DNA of 64,000 bases from Escherichia coli. Its GTDB lineage: Bacteria > Pseudomonadota > Gammaproteobacteria > Enterobacterales > Enterobacteriaceae. Location: NCBI RefSeq assembly GCF_003790525.1, contig NZ_CP033635.1. One strand, written 5' to 3'. Each line of letters opens with the position of its first letter. Positions within the stretch are counted from its first letter, which is position 1. Positions 3,001 through 9,000 of the stretch are shown here, in pieces. A program made the position numbers.

Positions 3001-6000
3001 CTCGCTGTAGGCGTCATCGTTGGCTTACTCACCTGGATCAGCTATCAAATCATGGTCAATCTGGGATTGTTATTTGCGTTGAGCGCACCTGTTACCGCGC
3101 TCGGTTTACCGGTAGCGTTTGTGTTGGTGGCGTTGAGCCTGGTGTATTGGTATGACAGACAACATTAAACCCGCCGTGGCGCAACACCACAGCGGGCTCA
3201 CATTACTGCTTCAGAGTAGCAAATGCCTGAATGATGGCATCGATTTGCTCACGACTGTGGGCAGCGTTTACGCTACAGCGCAGCAGAGTGATGCCTGCAG
3301 GCGCGGCAGGTGGCAGGATAAGATTCACATAAACGCCCAGCGAAATAAGCTCGCGCCAGATGCGTAAACCTTCCTCTTTCGAACCGATTATTACTGGCAC
3401 TACCGGGCTAATATGTGAACTTAACTCATAACCCAGTTTTTGCAGACCATCATACAGATGGTTGGCGTTATCCATCAGTTTTTGCCGCAGCTCTGGTTGT
3501 GTGGCAATGGTTCTTAACGACGAGCGCACGGTCGCAATGCAGGACGGAGAAGGAGAGGCGGTAAAAATATACGGGCGGCTGCCGTAGCGCAGCACTTCCA
3601 TCGCTTCCGAACCGACAGCAAAACCGCCAATCGAGGCCAGACTTTTACTGAAGGTGCCAACGATAATATCCACATCATCTTCAACGCCAACGGCTTCAGC
3701 CAGTCCGCGCCCCGTTGCGCCTAACACGCCAAACGAATGCGCTTCATCGACAATCAAATAACCACCGAGACGACGTTTGATATCAACAATTTCCGCTAAC
3801 GGCGCAACGTCACCGAGCATGCTGTAGATACCCTCAACGATGATAATCGCCTCTTTCGCCCGTTCACCGAGGCGAACCATGCGCCGTTCCAGATCTTTAG
3901 CATCGTTATGGCGGAAACGAATAATTTCCGCGCCACCGAGAGAACAGGCGTCATAAATACTGGCGTGGCTGTCGGCATCCAGTAACACCACGGCGTTATG
4001 GTCGGCAAGTGCGCTGATGACGCCTAAATTAGCGGTATAACCGGTTGAAAAAACGATAGCGGTAGGGCGATTGAAAAACTCGGCAATCTCTTTCTCTAAC
4101 GCCAGATGCGGCGCATAACTGCCGTTTGCCATACGAGAACCGGTGGTGCCGGTGCCTTGGGCCGCTAACGCTGCCTGACCTTCGGCGATGGCATCATGAT
4201 TAAAGGTTAAACCGAGATAATTATTGGTCCCGGCCAGAATCACTTTTTTATTGCCGATCCGACCTTCGGTGGCGGAATACACTTCATCAATACAGGTGCC
4301 AAACGGTGTTAACCCGTTGTCACTAAATTGCAGTCTCTCGCCAGCAAGGCGCGCATATTTATCGTATAGCCCCATTATTTATTCTCCAGCCATGGAAGTA
4401 GAGTTTCCATTAATTGCGCAGGGGTTTTGACATCCAGCAGAATATTAATAGGAATGGAAATATCGAATCTGTCTTCCAGCATCATTAAGAGATCCATCAC
4501 TTTGATCGACTCCAGGCCAAGATCGTTGACGAGATCGCTGTCGGGCTTAATTTCCACACCGTTTTCGACCAAATCCTGTAAACAGGAAAGGATGTAATCC
4601 ATTACTATTTCACGATTTACCATAGAAACGTTAACACACCTTTAAACAAGACAATCAAAATAGCCCGTTGCGTAATGCGTGTTCCAGGCTAATCCCGGGA
4701 AACCAATTAATATCTTCAGAAATACGGTTATTACTTGCCGACCAGTCGGCATGGGTTAATTCACGGATTTTCGAACGAGTCAGCATCGGTTCTTTACCCG
4801 CCAGACGGCTCAACGCGGTACTGATATCCGCAAGGCAGGTGAGTAGCGGCAGAGGAATACCGACCATCCGCACGGAACCACAGCGGACATCGGCAACAAG
4901 CTGTTGGACACGTTGCCAGTCATAGCCTCCGGCGACGCCATCGCATAATTCATAGGTTTGCGTCTGTACAGTTTCGGCGCTTAACCACTGACCCACTGCT
5001 TGCGCAAAATCGGTGACGTGCAGGAAAGAGAGCTGTGTCTCTGGCGTGCCAAGTCGTGGCAGCAGACCGCGCAGCATCCAGTCAAACAGCGGTTTTAACT
5101 CTTTATCGCCGGGACCATACACGGCTGTCGGGCGAAAAACGCCCAACGTAATTTCGTCAGCCATTGCAGTCAGCTGTTGTTCGGCGACGTGTTTGGAATT
5201 TGCGTACCAGGAGAGTTCGGGATGGCGCGCCGCCAGCGAAGAGATAAACAGAAAACGTTGGCAAAAGCCGCTCTCTTTTGCCGCTTGCATCAGGCGCAGG
5301 CTGCCGTCAACGTTGCAGCGGGTAAAAATCTCTTCTTTGTGCCCGCGCACTTGCCCGGCGCAATGGACCACCGCGCTGGCTCCGGTAACCAGTTCGCTAA
5401 GCGAATGTGTATCTTCCAGCGAACCGCGCACCCAAGTGAGATTATCATTGACGTGAGCGCGGGCAGTACGCGTCAATGCGCGAACGTGAAAGCCGCAGGC
5501 GAGCAGGTTATCAATAATATATTTACCGATAAACCCGGTAGCGCCCGTCACCGCGACAGTTTGATTCATGCCAGAGACTCCTGCACATGAAGACTGGCAG
5601 CATAAGCCTTCTGATAACGTTTTTTCGCTTCCGCACGGGCAGGCTTGCCGGAGGATGTTCGGGGAATACTGTGGGGCGGCAACAGATCGATATCCGCGGT
5701 AACGCCAAATTCGCTTTGGATCCGTGCTGCCAGCGCGTGGATAAGCTGCCCGCGACGTTCTTCATCGCTGATCCGACACTGGATCTGCAAAATGATTTTT
5801 TCCTGGGCGGTAACAAAAGCAATCGCATCGCCAGAATGAATTTCCGGTTCCTGTTCCGCAATATATTCAATATCCTGCGGCCAGATATTACGGCCACGAA
5901 TAATAATCAGATCTTTAATGCGTCCGGTGACATACAGATAACCGTCCAGCAGATAACCGAGGTCGCCGGTGTCTAACCAGCCCGTCGCGGCAATCTCGTC

Positions 6001-9000
6001 TTGTGAAATCTGGTCGCCAAAGTAACCGCTCATCAGGCTAGGGCCGGAGATGCAAATATGGCCTACCACACGTTCCGCGACAGGTATACCTGCTTCATTG
6101 CGGATTTCAATGCCATGTTCCGGCAACGCTTTACCGCAGTTGACGAAAGTCGATACGGCGCGTGTTTCAGCATCCGGCGCGACGGCTTTGCCCTGATATT
6201 CGAGGATGTCGCGATCCACTTCGTTAACCACAACCCCGGAAGCTTCATCAGAGAAGCTGACAGCCAGCGCATTTTCTGCCAGTCCGTAGCACGGCATGAA
6301 AGTTTTATCGTCAAAGTTGACCTGACGGAAACATTCAGCGAATTGATGGAGTTGTTCTGCGGAGATGGGTTCTGCACCAATACCAGCGACGCGCCAGCAG
6401 GAAAGATCCAGTTCAGCGAGATCTTTTTCATTCACGCGGCGCTGGCACAATTCATAGCCAAACGGCGGCGCAACGGAAACGGTGCCGCGATTTTTACTGA
6501 TCAATTTAAGCCATTGCAGAGGACGCATGGCAAAATCCTGAGTGCGCAAATAATCTACTGAAAGCTGCGTGGCGACGGGGGTCAGGAGAAAGCCGACCAG
6601 TCCCATATCATGGTAGAAAGGCAGCCAGGAGACGCAGCGGTCGCCAGGGCGTAATTTTATGCCATCGTGGCTTATAGCACGTAGATTAGCCATCACTTCG
6701 CGATGGGTGATAATGACGCCACGGGGAAAACGGGTGCTGCCGGAGGTGTACTGGAGGTAGGCGATATCGTTCGGAACTGGACGCTGGAGCGCAACATCGG
6801 CTTCCGGTAATGCCTTAAACCAGGCGTGGCTTAAAACATGTAATTCGGGGTTGTTGTTATGCGTCGCGGCATTGACCAGTGGCAACCACTCATCACCAGT
6901 GATAATGGCTGCGGGCTGGCAACTTGCCAGTAAACCCTGCAGCTTGGCGCTCCAGGAATCCCGCTGACCGACGCCCATGGGAATCGCCAACGGGACGGCG
7001 ACTAAGCCGGCATACTGGCAGGCAAAAAAAGCCTCTACGAACCCGCTACTGGTTTCGGCAATCAGCGCCACGCGATCGCCTTTTTTCAGGTTTAGCGATA
7101 ACAACCGCTTCGCACCAGCTTCGGCACGCGCTTTTAACGTCTGATATTCCAGTTGATCTTCAAGTTGGCAACGTCTGTCATAAAAATTCATTCCAGCGCT
7201 ACTCAGAGCGGCATAGTCCAAAGCATCAACCAGCGTTGGAAAATCGGCATAGCGCATAGGTAGGGAATGCGTAAAGATTTTATTAGACATATACACCACG
7301 AAAAAATTGGATATCAAAAATAAAATGACAATAATGCGGTGGATTATATAGGCATAAAAGATAAATGAGATAGTATTTTCATCAGTGTGAAAATGAACAT
7401 TGATTTAAATAATGAATTTGAGTTTTTTGTTTTTATTGTGAATGATATTTAATTTATGAATATATTAAGAAGGAGCCTTGTCCGGTCGCCTTAAATCGAC
7501 AAAAGGCATTGTGGCGCTTCTGTGTAGTCTCTGACCTTATCGTAATCATTAATAAATACTATTTATTCGTTGTTTGTATTCATTGGGTTGATTATTAAGG
7601 TGCCGTTCGTTGCTGTTGCAACCTGTTTGTCACCGTTAATTATTTGTTACCCACAGAACTATGGAATGCGATCTGCTGATGATTAAAATTGAAAAAGTAA
7701 TTAATAAAAATGACCTTAAGGCATTTATCGCTTTTCCGTCATCACTTTATCCCGACGATCCAAACTGGATACCCCCTTTATTCATTGAACGCAACGAGCA
7801 TTTGTCTGCGAAAAATCCGGGGACGGACCATATCATCTGGCAGGCGTGGGTGGCAAAAAAAGCGGGGCAGATAGTTGGGCGTATTACCGCGCAAATAGAT
7901 ACATTGCACCGCGAGCGTTACGGCAAAGATACCGGTCATTTCGGCATGATTGACGCCATTGATGATCCGCAGGTTTTTGCCGCGTTGTTTGGCGCAGCGG
8001 AAGCGTGGTTGAAGTCACAAGGTGCAAGTAAGATCAGCGGTCCTTTCAGCCTGAATATCAATCAGGAAAGCGGATTACTGATTGAAGGTTTCGATACACC
8101 ACCCTGTGCGATGATGCCACACGGCAAACCGTGGTATGCCGCGCATATTGAACAATTGGGTTATCACAAAGGCATTGATTTACTGGCGTGGTGGATGCAG
8201 CGAACCGATCTCACTTTCTCTCCGGCGCTAAAAAAACTGATGGATCAGGTACGCAAAAAGGTGACCATTCGTTGCATCAATCGTCAGCGGTTTGCTGAAG
8301 AGATGCAGATCCTGCGTGAGATTTTCAACTCTGGCTGGCAGCACAACTGGGGATTTGTGCCGTTTACCGAACATGAATTCGCGACCATGGGCGACCAACT
8401 TAAATATCTGGTGCCGGACGATATGATCTACATCGCTGAGATTGATTCTGCACCCTGCGCGTTTATTGTCGGCTTGCCAAACATCAACGAGGCGATTGCC
8501 GATCTGAACGGATCGCTCTTTCCCTTCGGCTGGGCAAAATTGCTGTGGCGTTTAAAAGTCAGCGGTGTGCGAACTGCGCGAGTACCGCTGATGGGCGTGC
8601 GGGACGAGTATCAGTTCAGCCGCATCGGCCCGGTGATTGCGCTGTTATTGATTGAAGCCTTACGCGATCCGTTTGCCCGCCGGAAGATCGATGCGCTGGA
8701 GATGTCATGGATCCTCGAAACCAATACAGGCATGAATAACATGCTGGAACGCATTGGGGCAGAGCCGTACAAGCGTTACCGATTGTATGAAAAGCAGATT
8801 TAATACCAGATCCTGTTAAGCGCAGGGGCGATCCCTCGCCCCTCGGGGAAAGGGTTAGGGTGAGGGTGAAAACTCGGCTCACATTCCCACCTTGTTCATC
8901 TCCAGCGGCACCGCCGAGCGAATCAAATGGTGGCCTTCCAGCTCGATATCGTGGAGATTCTTTTTCACGGTCCGCACATGATCGCGTGCTGCGCGCTGGG

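What the first reader, a model, noticed from the sequence alone, without database searches (positions are those of the whole stretch)
3203..7317. Translationally coupled acyl-AMP ligase / SDR reductase / ACP / alpha-oxoamine synthase operon: candidate sphingolipid-like or aminolipid pathway
Four minus-strand genes with overlapping stop/start codons encode an AMP-dependent ligase (YTSGSTRFPRGV), an extended-SDR enzyme (GATGFIG), a small dedicated acyl carrier protein (DLGLESI) and a PLP alpha-oxoamine synthase (DEAHSFG, TFSKS lysine). A Spt-like enzyme with its own ACP and acyl-ACP synthetase is the core of bacterial long-chain-base (ceramide) synthesis in some alpha-proteobacteria; CqsA-type amino-ketone signal synthases use a related alpha-oxoamine synthase chemistry. 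E. coli is not known to make sphingolipids, and the SDR could reduce a 3-keto intermediate. The product and function here are, as far as I can tell, uncharacterised.
Basis: partly seen in the sequence, partly recalled or inferred. Interest (0 to 1): 0.8.

Follow-up and report, generated by a model that had tools for sequence, protein, structure and literature searches.

The report
E. coli sphingolipid (ceramide) synthesis operon

Summary
Window 3203-7317 (minus strand) carries spt (390 aa), a dedicated ACP (82 aa), an extended-SDR reductase (304 aa) and a fatty acyl-AMP ligase (most likely 574 aa). All quoted motifs are present.

- The window is an E. coli chromosome. The locus lies between a second lptF/lptG pair and yghO-glcC.
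- The proteins are 95-100% identical to BL21(DE3) ECD_02851-02854 (AasR, Epi/CerR, AcpR, Spt). [quoted passage not shown]
- The ligase is essentially PDB 3PBK (EcFAAL).
- Spt passes NCBIfam's curated serine-palmitoyltransferase model and fails the BioF, Kbl, CqsA and ALAS models.
- The divergent neighbour yghO is a tandem-GNAT protein, reported as 44% identical to Caulobacter ceramide synthase. It is linked to spt or lptF2/G2 in 76 of 80 genomes scanned.
- A 2026 preprint already draws the E. coli locus with LptF2/G2.

The extended locus is intact in about 75% of complete E. coli genomes and is under purifying selection. K-12 lost it through an IS5-associated 8.4-kb deletion.

Still unknown: the native product, its regulation, and the roles of YghQRST, a 274-aa orphan protein and a YtfJ paralog.

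Novelty: already known.

The parts
3203..4375 (-). spt: serine palmitoyltransferase (PLP alpha-oxoamine synthase), 390 aa. Key residues are Lys244 (TFSK), Asp210/His213 (DEAHS), His137 and Arg366 (LLRCS).
   Evidence: NCBIfam NF047599 (SPT, beta-proteobacterial type) scores 600 bits against a cut-off of 500, while BioF, Kbl, CqsA and ALAS models all fall below their cut-offs. The best solved relative is S. paucimobilis SPT 2JG2, E 8e-112. It is 388/390 identical to BL21(DE3) Spt, which was tested in PMC9386255.
4375..4623 (-). acpR: dedicated acyl carrier protein, 82 aa, with 4'-phosphopantetheine attachment at Ser39 in DLGLES. Its stop overlaps the spt start (TAATG).
   Evidence: It has the same RefSeq protein (WP_000248097.1) as BL21(DE3) ECD_02853, which was shown to incorporate beta-alanine. 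It hits ACP models only below the AcpP cut-offs.
4655..5569 (-). Extended-SDR reductase (epi/CerR homologue), 304 aa, with GATGFIG at 9-15 and YANSK at 122-126. It is the presumed 3-keto reductase. Its start overlaps the ligase stop (ATGA).
   Evidence: Pfam Epimerase PF01370, 5.8e-23. It is 290/304 identical to BL21 ECD_02852. The paper's Table S2 gives 34% identity, E 7e-38, to Caulobacter CC_1164. Its position is conserved in 38 of 80 YghO loci.
5566..7290 (-). aasR / EcFAAL: fatty acyl-AMP ligase that loads the ACP, 574 aa from the ATG at 7290. The mechanical ORF extends to a TTG at 7317.
   Evidence: NCBIfam NF006624 scores 872 bits against a cut-off of 600. PDB 3PBK matches at 1285 bits, nearly identical over 574 residues. 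It is 551/563 identical to BL21 ECD_02851.
7291..7660 (.). Divergent, AT-rich control region between the ligase operon and yghO (31.5% GC over 7318-7660). No Rfam element is present.
   Evidence: Promoter function is inferred, not shown.
7661..8803 (+). yghO: tandem-GNAT N-acyltransferase, homologue of the bacterial ceramide synthase (aca/bCerS), 380 aa.
   Evidence: No Pfam or NCBIfam hit. The AF2 model has pLDDT 96.3. Foldseek matches tandem GNATs at E 1e-15. Reported 44% identity, E 1e-107, to CC_1154. It lies next to spt-operon and/or lptF2/G2 homologues in 76 of 80 loci.
3166..3200 (.). 16-bp GC-rich hairpin between the convergent ends of lptG2 and spt, probably a bidirectional terminator.
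1022..3168 (+). lptF2 (1022-2092) and lptG2 (2089-3168): a second, dispensable LptF/LptG pair and candidate sphingolipid extractor.
   Evidence: TIGR04407 scores 320 bits and TIGR04408 scores 301 bits. The pair is deleted in viable K-12. The Caulobacter LptF2/G2 data and the E. coli UTI89 locus drawing are in bioRxiv 10.64898/2026.04.12.717747.
428..991 (+). YtfJ-family paralog with a signal peptide (periplasmic), function unknown. It is conserved in the enterobacterial locus.
1..419 (+). 3' part of a 274-aa orphan gene that begins upstream of the window. The protein is all-alpha with no known fold match.

Best explanation
This is the accessory E. coli sphingolipid (dihydroceramide) biosynthesis operon, already described for E. 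coli B/BL21(DE3). Proposed mechanism follows. (1) The fatty acyl-AMP ligase (AasR/EcFAAL) adenylates a free fatty acid and transfers it to the 4'-phosphopantetheine arm of the dedicated ACP (AcpR) rather than to CoA. C12/C14 adenylates were found in the crystal. (2) Spt, a PLP enzyme, condenses acyl-AcpR with L-serine with loss of CO2 to give 3-oxo-sphinganine (3-ketodihydrosphingosine). (3) The divergently transcribed tandem-GNAT YghO N-acylates the base. (4) The SDR reduces the 3-keto group to give dihydroceramide. The order of steps 3 and 4 is disputed even in Caulobacter. (5) The neighbouring genes then probably modify, flip and export the lipid to the outer membrane: the three YghR/S/T P-loop kinase-like proteins, the YghQ MOP flippase, the 274-aa orphan, the periplasmic YtfJ paralog and LptF2/LptG2, with LptB. 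Steps 1 and 2 are shown experimentally for near-identical alleles. Steps 3 and 4 are inferred from homology and synteny. Step 5 is inferred from gene linkage and Caulobacter genetics. The chromosomal operon seems silent or very weakly expressed in laboratory culture.
For: Identity of the locus: 100% DNA match to E. coli chromosomes, with RefSeq annotations spt, ACP, epimerase-family protein and FAAL. The proteins are 99%, 100%, 95% and 98% identical to BL21(DE3) ECD_02854/53/52/51. [quoted passage not shown] EcFAAL has a crystal structure with lauroyl/myristoyl-adenylate (3PBK), and EcFAAL acylates holo-EcACP in vitro. Family tests: Spt exceeds the curated SPT cut-off and fails those for BioF, Kbl, CqsA and ALAS. 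The nearest solved structures are Sphingomonas SPTs, with the catalytic His, Asp, His, Lys and Arg conserved. YghO is a tandem GNAT. It is reported as 44% identical to Caulobacter Aca/bCerS and is syntenic with spt or lptF2/G2 in 76 of 80 loci, including 45 of 45 loci with full flanks. Function is retained in nature: the 10.6-kb extended locus is intact in 4063 of 5426 complete genomes, and within-E. coli dN/dS is 0.02-0.15 against a divergent E. coli and <=0.24 against BL21(DE3).
Against: No native E. coli sphingolipid has been reported in the papers I could search. The BL21(DE3) host carries the chromosomal operon, yet its empty-vector controls show no 3-oxo-sphinganine-like spot, and overexpression accumulates the keto base rather than ceramide. 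Native expression is therefore unproven. The product in E. coli was identified by TLC co-migration. The high-resolution mass cited in that paper was measured with the Caulobacter genes. No activity has been shown for the E. coli SDR or YghO. I could not confirm by accession that 'EcACP' in the eLife paper is this ACP.
Confidence: 0.85

Rival explanations
1. The locus is a cryptic relic in E. coli: the enzymes are active when overexpressed, but the operon is never usefully expressed and no sphingolipid is made in nature.
For: No product appears in BL21(DE3) empty-vector controls although the chromosomal operon is present. The control region is very AT-rich, 31.5% GC, which is typical of silenced promoters (inference). 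K-12 and about a quarter of complete genomes lack the locus without obvious harm.
Against: All ten genes from yghQ to yghO are intact. Where calculable, dN/dS is 0.02-0.15 against a divergent E. coli lineage and <=0.24 against BL21(DE3). The locus is retained in about 75% of complete genomes and at 74-88% Spt protein identity in other Enterobacterales genera. A relic would accumulate frameshifts and nonsynonymous changes.
Confidence: 0.1
2. The in vivo product is not a membrane ceramide. It would be a free amino-ketone or amino-alcohol or another aminolipid, for example a CqsA-like signal or a condensation with an amino acid other than serine.
For: All alpha-oxoamine synthases share the same chemistry. 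The E. coli product was identified only by TLC co-migration. EcFAAL crystallised with C12/C14 adenylates rather than C16, so chain length may be unusual.
Against: The CqsA model scores 221 bits against a cut-off of 428, while the SPT model passes. The serine-binding Arg (LLRCS) and the other SPT residues are conserved. A ceramide-synthase homologue and LptF2/G2 lipid-export genes are tightly linked across 76 of 80 genomes, which points to an acylated, exported membrane lipid. In vitro assays used L-[14C]serine.
Confidence: 0.04
3. The synthase is a second BioF or Kbl (biotin or threonine metabolism) and the operon is unrelated to sphingolipids.
For: Many database entries name it 8-amino-7-oxononanoate synthase. 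BioF and Kbl models give strong but sub-threshold scores.
Against: BioF scores 334 bits against a cut-off of 426, and Kbl scores 298 against 460. PDB BioF and Kbl chains score about 175-204 bits, against 377 for SPT. K-12 lacks the operon entirely yet is a biotin prototroph (established knowledge). 3-oxo-sphinganine formation has been shown directly.
Confidence: 0.01

Closest known systems
E. coli BL21(DE3) ECD_02850-ECD_02854 (yghO/aca, aasR, epi, acpR, spt), Padilla-Gomez et al. 2022, PMC9386255
   Same: It is the same chromosomal locus. ACP and YghO are identical proteins, and Spt is 99%, FAAL 98% and SDR 95% identical. Gene order and flanks (lptG2 and glcC) are the same.
   Different: Only allelic differences. 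The window matches SMS-3-5-type strains at 100% identity.
EcFAAL, PDB 3PBK (called Zhang et al. 2011 in PMC8460268)
   Same: It is nearly identical over all 574 residues. It is a fatty acyl-AMP ligase crystallised with bound C12/C14 acyl-adenylate.
   Different: A handful of substitutions and one residue indel. Two FAAL papers I read (PMC8460268, PMC11837247) contain no occurrence of 'sphingolipid'.
Caulobacter crescentus ceramide genes CC_1162 (spt), CC_1163 (acpR), CC_1164 (epi/CerR), CC_1165 (aasR), CC_1154 (aca/bCerS), plus LptF2/G2
   Same: It has the same five enzyme types, the same acyl-ACP-dependent Spt logic, and a clustered LptF2/LptG2 pair and flippase. Reported identities are 53% (Spt), 34% (Epi) and 44% (Aca).
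   Different: E. coli AasR does not work with Caulobacter AcpR. None of the genes I examined in the E. coli locus resembles the DAG-kinase-like ceramide kinase CpgB. Instead it carries three YghR/S/T P-loop proteins, a 274-aa orphan and a YtfJ paralog. LptC2 is described as restricted to Caulobacter. The head group in E. coli is unknown.
Sphingomonas paucimobilis / S. wittichii SPT (PDB 2JG2, 2X8U)
   Same: These are the best solved relatives, E about 1e-111, with the same soluble AOS fold and catalytic residues. S. wittichii also has an upstream ACP.
   Different: The E. coli protein is shorter at the N-terminus. In Sphingomonadaceae aasR lies far from acpR-spt.
Bacteroidetes/delta-proteobacterial SPT subgroup (Bacteroides, Porphyromonas, Sphingobacterium; PDB 3A2B)
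   Same: Same reaction and same fold.
   Different: It forms a separate SPT subgroup. The matching NCBIfam model NF047600 scores 340 bits against a cut-off of 640, and PDB 3A2B scores 265 bits against 377 for the Sphingomonas SPT.
Other alpha-oxoamine synthases: BioF, Kbl, CqsA, ALAS
   Same: PLP-dependent decarboxylative or Claisen condensation of an amino acid with an acyl thioester. The DEAHS and TFSK motifs are shared.
   Different: All four fall below their curated family cut-offs and have no ACP/FAAL/GNAT context.

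Membership tests
Serine palmitoyltransferase, alpha/beta/gamma-proteobacterial ('Rhodobacteria') type | Scores above the curated SPT family threshold and better than the sister AOS families | tested here: met
   NF047599 scores 600 bits against a cut-off of 500. BioF scores 334 against 426, Kbl 298 against 460, CqsA 221 against 428 and ALAS 220 against 339.
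Serine palmitoyltransferase, alpha/beta/gamma-proteobacterial ('Rhodobacteria') type | PLP-binding lysine and the catalytic His/Asp/His and carboxylate-binding Arg of solved SPTs | tested here: met
   Lys244, His137, Asp210, His213 and Arg366 lie in the DSHASI, DEAHS, TFSK and LLRCS motifs that are conserved in the alignment to 2JG2. Their equivalence to the named catalytic residues of that SPT rests on my own knowledge of the structure.
Serine palmitoyltransferase, alpha/beta/gamma-proteobacterial ('Rhodobacteria') type | spt immediately preceded by a dedicated acp gene in one operon | tested here: met
   The ACP stop overlaps the spt start (TAATG).
Serine palmitoyltransferase, alpha/beta/gamma-proteobacterial ('Rhodobacteria') type | Catalyses serine + acyl-thioester -> 3-oxo-sphinganine | not testable with these tools
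   Reported for the 99%-identical BL21(DE3) enzyme by TLC, in vivo and in cell extracts (PMC9386255).
Specialised ACP AcpR | Small acidic carrier protein with a conserved Ser for 4'-phosphopantetheine, distinct from housekeeping AcpP | tested here: met
   82 aa, pI 4.1, DLGLES with Ser39. ACP models hit at E 6e-9 but below every AcpP cut-off. The identical protein was labelled with beta-alanine.
Fatty acyl-AMP ligase (FAAL / AasR) | Scores above the curated FAAL subfamily cut-off and matches a solved FAAL | tested here: met
   NF006624 scores 872 bits against a cut-off of 600. It is nearly identical to 3PBK, for which the FAAL-specific insertion and blocked CoA pocket are described.
Fatty acyl-AMP ligase (FAAL / AasR) | Transfers acyl-AMP to holo-ACP and not to CoA | not testable with these tools
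   Reported for EcFAAL with EcACP and inferred in vivo for AasR_Ec with AcpR_Ec. I could not verify that EcACP (A0A2X1NC35) is this ACP.
Bacterial ceramide reductase (epi/CerR) SDR | Extended-SDR fold with a GxxGxxG nucleotide site and a YxxxK catalytic pair | tested here: met
   GATGFIG at 9-15 and YANSK at 122-126. Pfam Epimerase 5.8e-23.
Bacterial ceramide reductase (epi/CerR) SDR | Orthology to the characterised Caulobacter CC_1164 and conserved position in the spt operon | tested here: inconclusive
   The Caulobacter sequence was not fetched here. Published BLAST gives 34% identity, E 7e-38, 94% coverage. Synteny FAAL-SDR-ACP-Spt holds in 38 of 80 loci across gamma- and beta-proteobacteria.
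Bacterial ceramide reductase (epi/CerR) SDR | Reduces the 3-keto group of the sphingoid base or oxidised ceramide | not testable with these tools
   I found no assay reported for the E. coli protein.
Bacterial ceramide synthase (aca/bCerS, YghO) | GNAT-type acyltransferase fold | tested here: met
   The AF2 model has pLDDT 96.3. Top PDB matches are tandem-GNAT proteins (2WPW, 5KF1, 7Q3A, MshD), E 1e-15 to 1e-11.
Bacterial ceramide synthase (aca/bCerS, YghO) | Genomic linkage to sphingolipid genes across taxa | tested here: met
   76 of 80 YghO loci, and 45 of 45 with full 10-kb flanks, have Spt/ACP/SDR/FAAL and/or LptF2/G2 homologues nearby. Published identity to CC_1154 is 44%, E 1e-107.
Bacterial ceramide synthase (aca/bCerS, YghO) | N-acylates the sphingoid base | not testable with these tools
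   I found no assay for E. coli YghO.
CqsA-type autoinducer synthase (considered) | Scores above the curated CqsA equivalog cut-off | tested here: not met
   NF005526 scores 221 bits against a cut-off of 428.
BioF / Kbl (considered) | Scores above the curated equivalog cut-offs | tested here: not met
   TIGR00858 scores 334 against 426, and NF005394 scores 298 against 460.

The most novel reading that the evidence does not exclude
Most natural E. coli (about 75% of complete genomes), and several other Enterobacterales, make a so-far undetected outer-membrane sphingolipid. Its head group would differ from the Caulobacter ceramide phosphoglycerates. It would be built by the linked YghR/S/T P-loop kinase-like triplet and the 274-aa orphan protein, and exported by YghQ, LptF2/LptG2 (with LptB) and the periplasmic YtfJ paralog. 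Classical E. coli lipidology would have missed it because K-12 lost the locus to an IS5-associated deletion and because the operon is silent in rich laboratory media.
Probability: 0.35. Interest if true: 0.65.

Novelty: already known. Interest (0 to 1): 0.25.

Why it matters
The textbook E. coli lipidome (PE, PG, cardiolipin, lipid A) comes largely from K-12, which has lost this locus. Three quarters of complete E. coli genomes keep an intact, selectively constrained ceramide pathway with its own LptFG-type exporter. If it is switched on in the gut, in infection or in the environment, it would add a sphingolipid to the outer membrane of a major commensal and pathogen. That could affect envelope barrier function, susceptibility to polymyxin and other antibiotics, and host sphingolipid signalling. 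None of this is new as a gene-level discovery. The value of this check is to redirect effort from 'what are these genes' to 'when are they expressed and what is the final lipid'.

Tried and rejected
- Anti-phage defence: PADLOC gave no meaningful hit for eight locus proteins.
- Riboswitch or leader RNA: no Rfam family at gathering score in 3000-9000.
- Promoter and terminator scans: no enrichment over shuffles. Only the 3166-3200 hairpin is convincing.
- Mobile-element origin: there are no matches on true plasmids. The hits are chromosome-sized records filed as plasmids, one 354-kb E. coli record, and a 467-kb Rahnella megaplasmid at 72% identity. GC content is typical of E. coli.
- YghO by sequence profiles: no Pfam or NCBIfam hit, so I used structure prediction instead.
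- The search for related loci with the 88-sequence YghO alignment failed because no stretch was conserved enough. A 13-sequence alignment worked, but its best 80 loci did not reach Caulobacter, so identities to the Caulobacter proteins are quoted from the paper's Table S2 rather than recomputed.
- Stankeviciute et al. 2022 (PMC8891067) is not held.
- I could not map UniProt A0A2X1NC35 (EcACP) onto this ACP.
- The 274-aa orphan gave a confident model (pLDDT 91) but no PDB fold match, best E about 0.1.
- Two Python attempts failed because loci are stored several per file.
- YghR/S/T are not CpgB-like. CpgB is a DAG-kinase-type enzyme with a GGDG motif, whereas YghR/S/T show only weak dTMP-kinase/P-loop similarity.

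Full report
**Observation.**
- 3203-4375, 390 aa
- 4375-4623, 82 aa
- 4655-5569, 304 aa
- 5566-7317, 583 aa if counted from a TTG

Every quoted motif is present. The SDR also has a YxxxK catalytic motif (YANSK, 122-126), and the ACP serine is Ser39.

Two details need correcting. First, only two of the three junctions overlap. The ACP stop and spt start share one base (TAATG), and the ligase stop and SDR start share four (ATGA). The SDR stop and the ACP start are 31 nt apart, with an AAAGGTG ribosome-binding-like sequence between them. Second, the ligase probably starts at the ATG at 7290. That ATG has a GGTG 5 nt upstream, it is RefSeq's 574-aa start, and it is where the alignment to the crystallised protein begins. 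The TTG at 7317 has no such support.

**Where the window comes from.** The 4.7 kb around the finding is 100% identical to several E. coli chromosomes, for example SMS-3-5. DNA >=95% identical covers >=80% of it in 4066 of 5426 complete E. coli genomes. RefSeq annotates the four genes as serine palmitoyltransferase (spt), acyl carrier protein, NAD-dependent epimerase/dehydratase family protein and fatty acyl-AMP ligase. The annotated order of the neighbourhood is:

pitB - yghT - yghS - (yghR) - (yghQ) - a 274-aa hypothetical - a YtfJ-family protein - 'lptF' - 'lptG' - [spt, ACP, SDR, FAAL on the opposite strand] - yghO - glcC - glcDEFGB

**What each protein is.**
- *Spt.* It scores 600 bits on NCBIfam's curated serine palmitoyltransferase equivalog NF047599 (cut-off 500). 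It falls below the cut-offs for BioF (334 against 426), Kbl (298 against 460), CqsA (221 against 428) and ALAS (220 against 339). Its nearest solved relatives are the Sphingomonas SPTs (2JG2, E 8e-112; 2X8U). Kbl and BioF chains are far behind, at E 1e-50 to 1e-59. The motifs holding the PLP lysine and the His, Asp, His and Arg residues of the SPT active site are conserved.
- *Ligase.* It scores 872 bits on the FAAL subfamily model (cut-off 600). It is essentially the protein of PDB entry 3PBK, 'Fatty Acyl-Adenylate Ligase' from E. coli (1285 bits, 574 aligned residues, a handful of substitutions).
- *SDR.* It is an extended-SDR/epimerase-family protein.
- *ACP.* It is a divergent carrier protein that matches ACP models only below the housekeeping AcpP thresholds.

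**Already characterised.** Padilla-Gomez et al. 2022 (PMC9386255) studied this very locus in E. coli BL21(DE3): ECD_02851 aasR, ECD_02852 epi, ECD_02853 acpR, ECD_02854 spt and yghO/ECD_02850 aca.

I fetched the BL21(DE3) region. ACP and YghO are the same RefSeq proteins as in the window's strain type. Spt is 388/390 identical, FAAL 551/563 and SDR 290/304.

The paper reports the following:
- AcpR_Ec incorporates beta-alanine, so it carries 4'-phosphopantetheine.
- AasR_Ec does not serve the Caulobacter AcpR.
- SPT_Ec forms far more product from palmitoyl-AcpR than from palmitoyl-CoA.

Independently, the FAAL field solved EcFAAL with lauroyl- and myristoyl-adenylate bound and showed in vitro transfer of fatty acid from EcFAAL to holo-'EcACP' (PMC8460268). 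Two FAAL papers I read contain no occurrence of 'sphingolipid', so the two literatures may not be cross-linked. I could not verify by accession that their EcACP is this ACP.

**The fifth gene.** yghO (7661-8803, + strand) is divergently transcribed across a 31.5%-GC spacer. It has no Pfam or NCBIfam hit, and K-12's annotation calls it a putative DNA-binding regulator.
- With an 88-sequence alignment, AlphaFold gives a very confident model (pLDDT 96.3). Its best PDB matches are tandem-GNAT acyltransferases, E 1e-15.
- The published comparison gives 44% identity (E 1e-107, 98% coverage) to Caulobacter CC_1154, the ceramide-synthesis N-acyltransferase.
- The family is large: 1128 50%-identity clusters at E <= 1e-30.
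- In a scan of one genome per species, 76 of the 80 best YghO loci have homologues of Spt/ACP/SDR/FAAL and/or LptF2/LptG2 within 10 kb. That includes all 45 loci with full flanks. 38 loci have all four operon genes in the same order and orientation. The loci span Enterobacterales, Pseudomonas, Nitrococcus, Methylotenera, Nitrosomonas and others.

YghO therefore belongs to the system, and the regulator annotation is very probably wrong.

**Transport neighbours.** The adjacent 'lptF/lptG' are a second copy of the LPS-exporter permeases. They are absent from viable K-12, so they are not the essential LPS pair. In Caulobacter, LptF2 and LptG2 are encoded in the sphingolipid locus, can be deleted only when sphingolipid synthesis is off, and co-purify with LptB. 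The same 2026 preprint draws the E. coli UTI89 'sphingolipid operons' with these homologues (bioRxiv 10.64898/2026.04.12.717747). An earlier paper had proposed the same role for them (PMC11324152). So this extension is also already noted in print.

**Distribution and selection.**
- The 10.6-kb stretch from yghQ to yghO is >=80% covered in 4063 of 5426 complete genomes.
- In K-12 MG1655 an IS5 element replaces 8.4 kb, from 281 nt before the end of yghQ to 40 nt inside yghO (window coordinate 7700). This removes the whole operon, lptF2/G2, ytfJ2 and the orphan gene. Other genomes show the same IS5-yghQ-yghO arrangement (H30).
- Between the window allele and BL21(DE3), or a divergent E. coli, dN/dS is 0.02-0.24 for the genes where it can be calculated. 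This indicates purifying selection rather than decay.
- Orthologous operons occur in E. albertii, Pseudocitrobacter, Citrobacter amalonaticus and C. youngae, Hafnia, Serratia, Erwinia, Shimwellia, Pluralibacter, Mangrovibacter, Rosenbergiella, Cedecea and Tatumella, at 74-96% Spt protein identity. Rahnella also carries the operon, at 72% nucleotide identity on a megaplasmid.
- There is no sign of recent mobility.

**Mechanism (shown versus inferred).**
- Shown for near-identical alleles: fatty-acid adenylation and loading of the ACP, and Spt-dependent formation of a 3-oxo-sphinganine-like lipid from serine.
- Inferred from homology and synteny: N-acylation by YghO and 3-keto reduction by the SDR. 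The order of these two steps is disputed even for Caulobacter.
- Inferred from linkage only: head-group modification by the three weakly dTMP-kinase-like P-loop proteins YghR/S/T; flipping by the MOP-family YghQ; extraction by LptF2G2; and some role for the signal-peptide-bearing YtfJ paralog and the orphan 274-aa protein.
- YghR/S/T homologues also sit beside spt in a Pseudomonas and a Methylotenera genome. They are not related to the Caulobacter ceramide kinase CpgB, which is DAG-kinase-like. The E. coli head group may therefore differ.

**What argues for caution.** BL21(DE3) itself carries the chromosomal operon, yet the empty-vector controls in the 2022 paper show no 3-oxo-sphinganine-like lipid. 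Overexpressing the first three genes accumulates the keto base rather than ceramide. The simplest reading is that the chromosomal genes are silent in rich medium at 30 C. I found no report of a native E. coli sphingolipid in the held library, but that library is incomplete.

**Verdict.** The finding is not new: the genes, their first three activities, a crystal structure and the linked transporters are all published. The open question is physiological, namely the native product, its regulation and its role in wild E. coli. That question is worth asking but is already visible to the field.

Noticed in passing
window 1022-3168 (+): A second LptF/LptG pair lies next to spt. PGAP names the genes lptF/lptG as if they were the canonical essential genes, yet K-12 lacks them. 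The literature proposes them as sphingolipid exporters that work with LptB.
   Followed up: partly
window 1-419 (+), full gene at L001 5596-6420: A 274-aa basic, all-alpha protein is conserved in the enterobacterial sphingolipid locus. It has no Pfam or NCBIfam hit. The AF2 model is confident (pLDDT 91), but there is no PDB fold match (best E about 0.1). Its function is unexplained.
   Followed up: partly
window 428-991 (+): A YtfJ-family paralog with a clear signal peptide (MMSSRLIIALVIMLLASGVQA/HN) lies between the orphan gene and lptF2. It is conserved in most enterobacterial versions of the locus and could be a periplasmic partner in lipid transport.
   Followed up: partly
L001 1832-5596 (upstream of the window): Three paralogous P-loop proteins, YghR/S/T, are annotated as dTMP kinases but score only about 25-31 bits against a cut-off of 83. 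Together with the MOP flippase YghQ they travel with the spt operon in Enterobacterales, and partly also in Pseudomonas bohemica (L027) and Methylotenera (L037). They are candidate head-group enzymes.
   Followed up: partly
window up to 7700; K-12 locus L004 6147-7341: In K-12 MG1655 an IS5 replaces 8.4 kb. It truncates yghQ (last 281 nt lost) and removes the first 40 nt of yghO, so the K-12 yghO reading frame runs into IS5. The K-12 annotation of YghO as a 'putative DNA-binding transcriptional regulator' conflicts with its tandem-GNAT fold.
   Followed up: yes
L005 11354-11716 (Serratia liquefaciens metagenome scaffold): A DgkA-type prokaryotic diacylglycerol kinase gene (PF01219) lies directly downstream of yghO in Serratia. 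It is a possible ceramide kinase candidate there.
   Followed up: no
window 5566-7290 (-): The FAAL papers (3PBK; eLife 2021; Nat Prod Rep 2025) and the sphingolipid papers (AasR) describe the same E. coli protein. In two FAAL papers I read, the word 'sphingolipid' does not occur.
   Followed up: partly
window 7318-7660: The divergent spacer between the ligase operon and yghO is only 31.5% GC, in a region that is otherwise about 52% GC. This is compatible with H-NS-type silencing, which would fit the apparent lack of expression in laboratory culture.
   Followed up: no
L076; L010 and L023: A MAG labelled Klebsiella pneumoniae carries a YghO only 48% identical, with a beta-proteobacterial-looking locus, so it is probably misbinned. 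Shimwellia pseudoproteus has two YghO copies, one with the operon and one without.
   Followed up: no
P0167: A 443-aa 'eukprot' protein 98% identical to E. coli Spt has an added PP-binding domain. It is most likely E. coli contamination, with the overlapping ACP and spt genes merged by gene calling.
   Followed up: no
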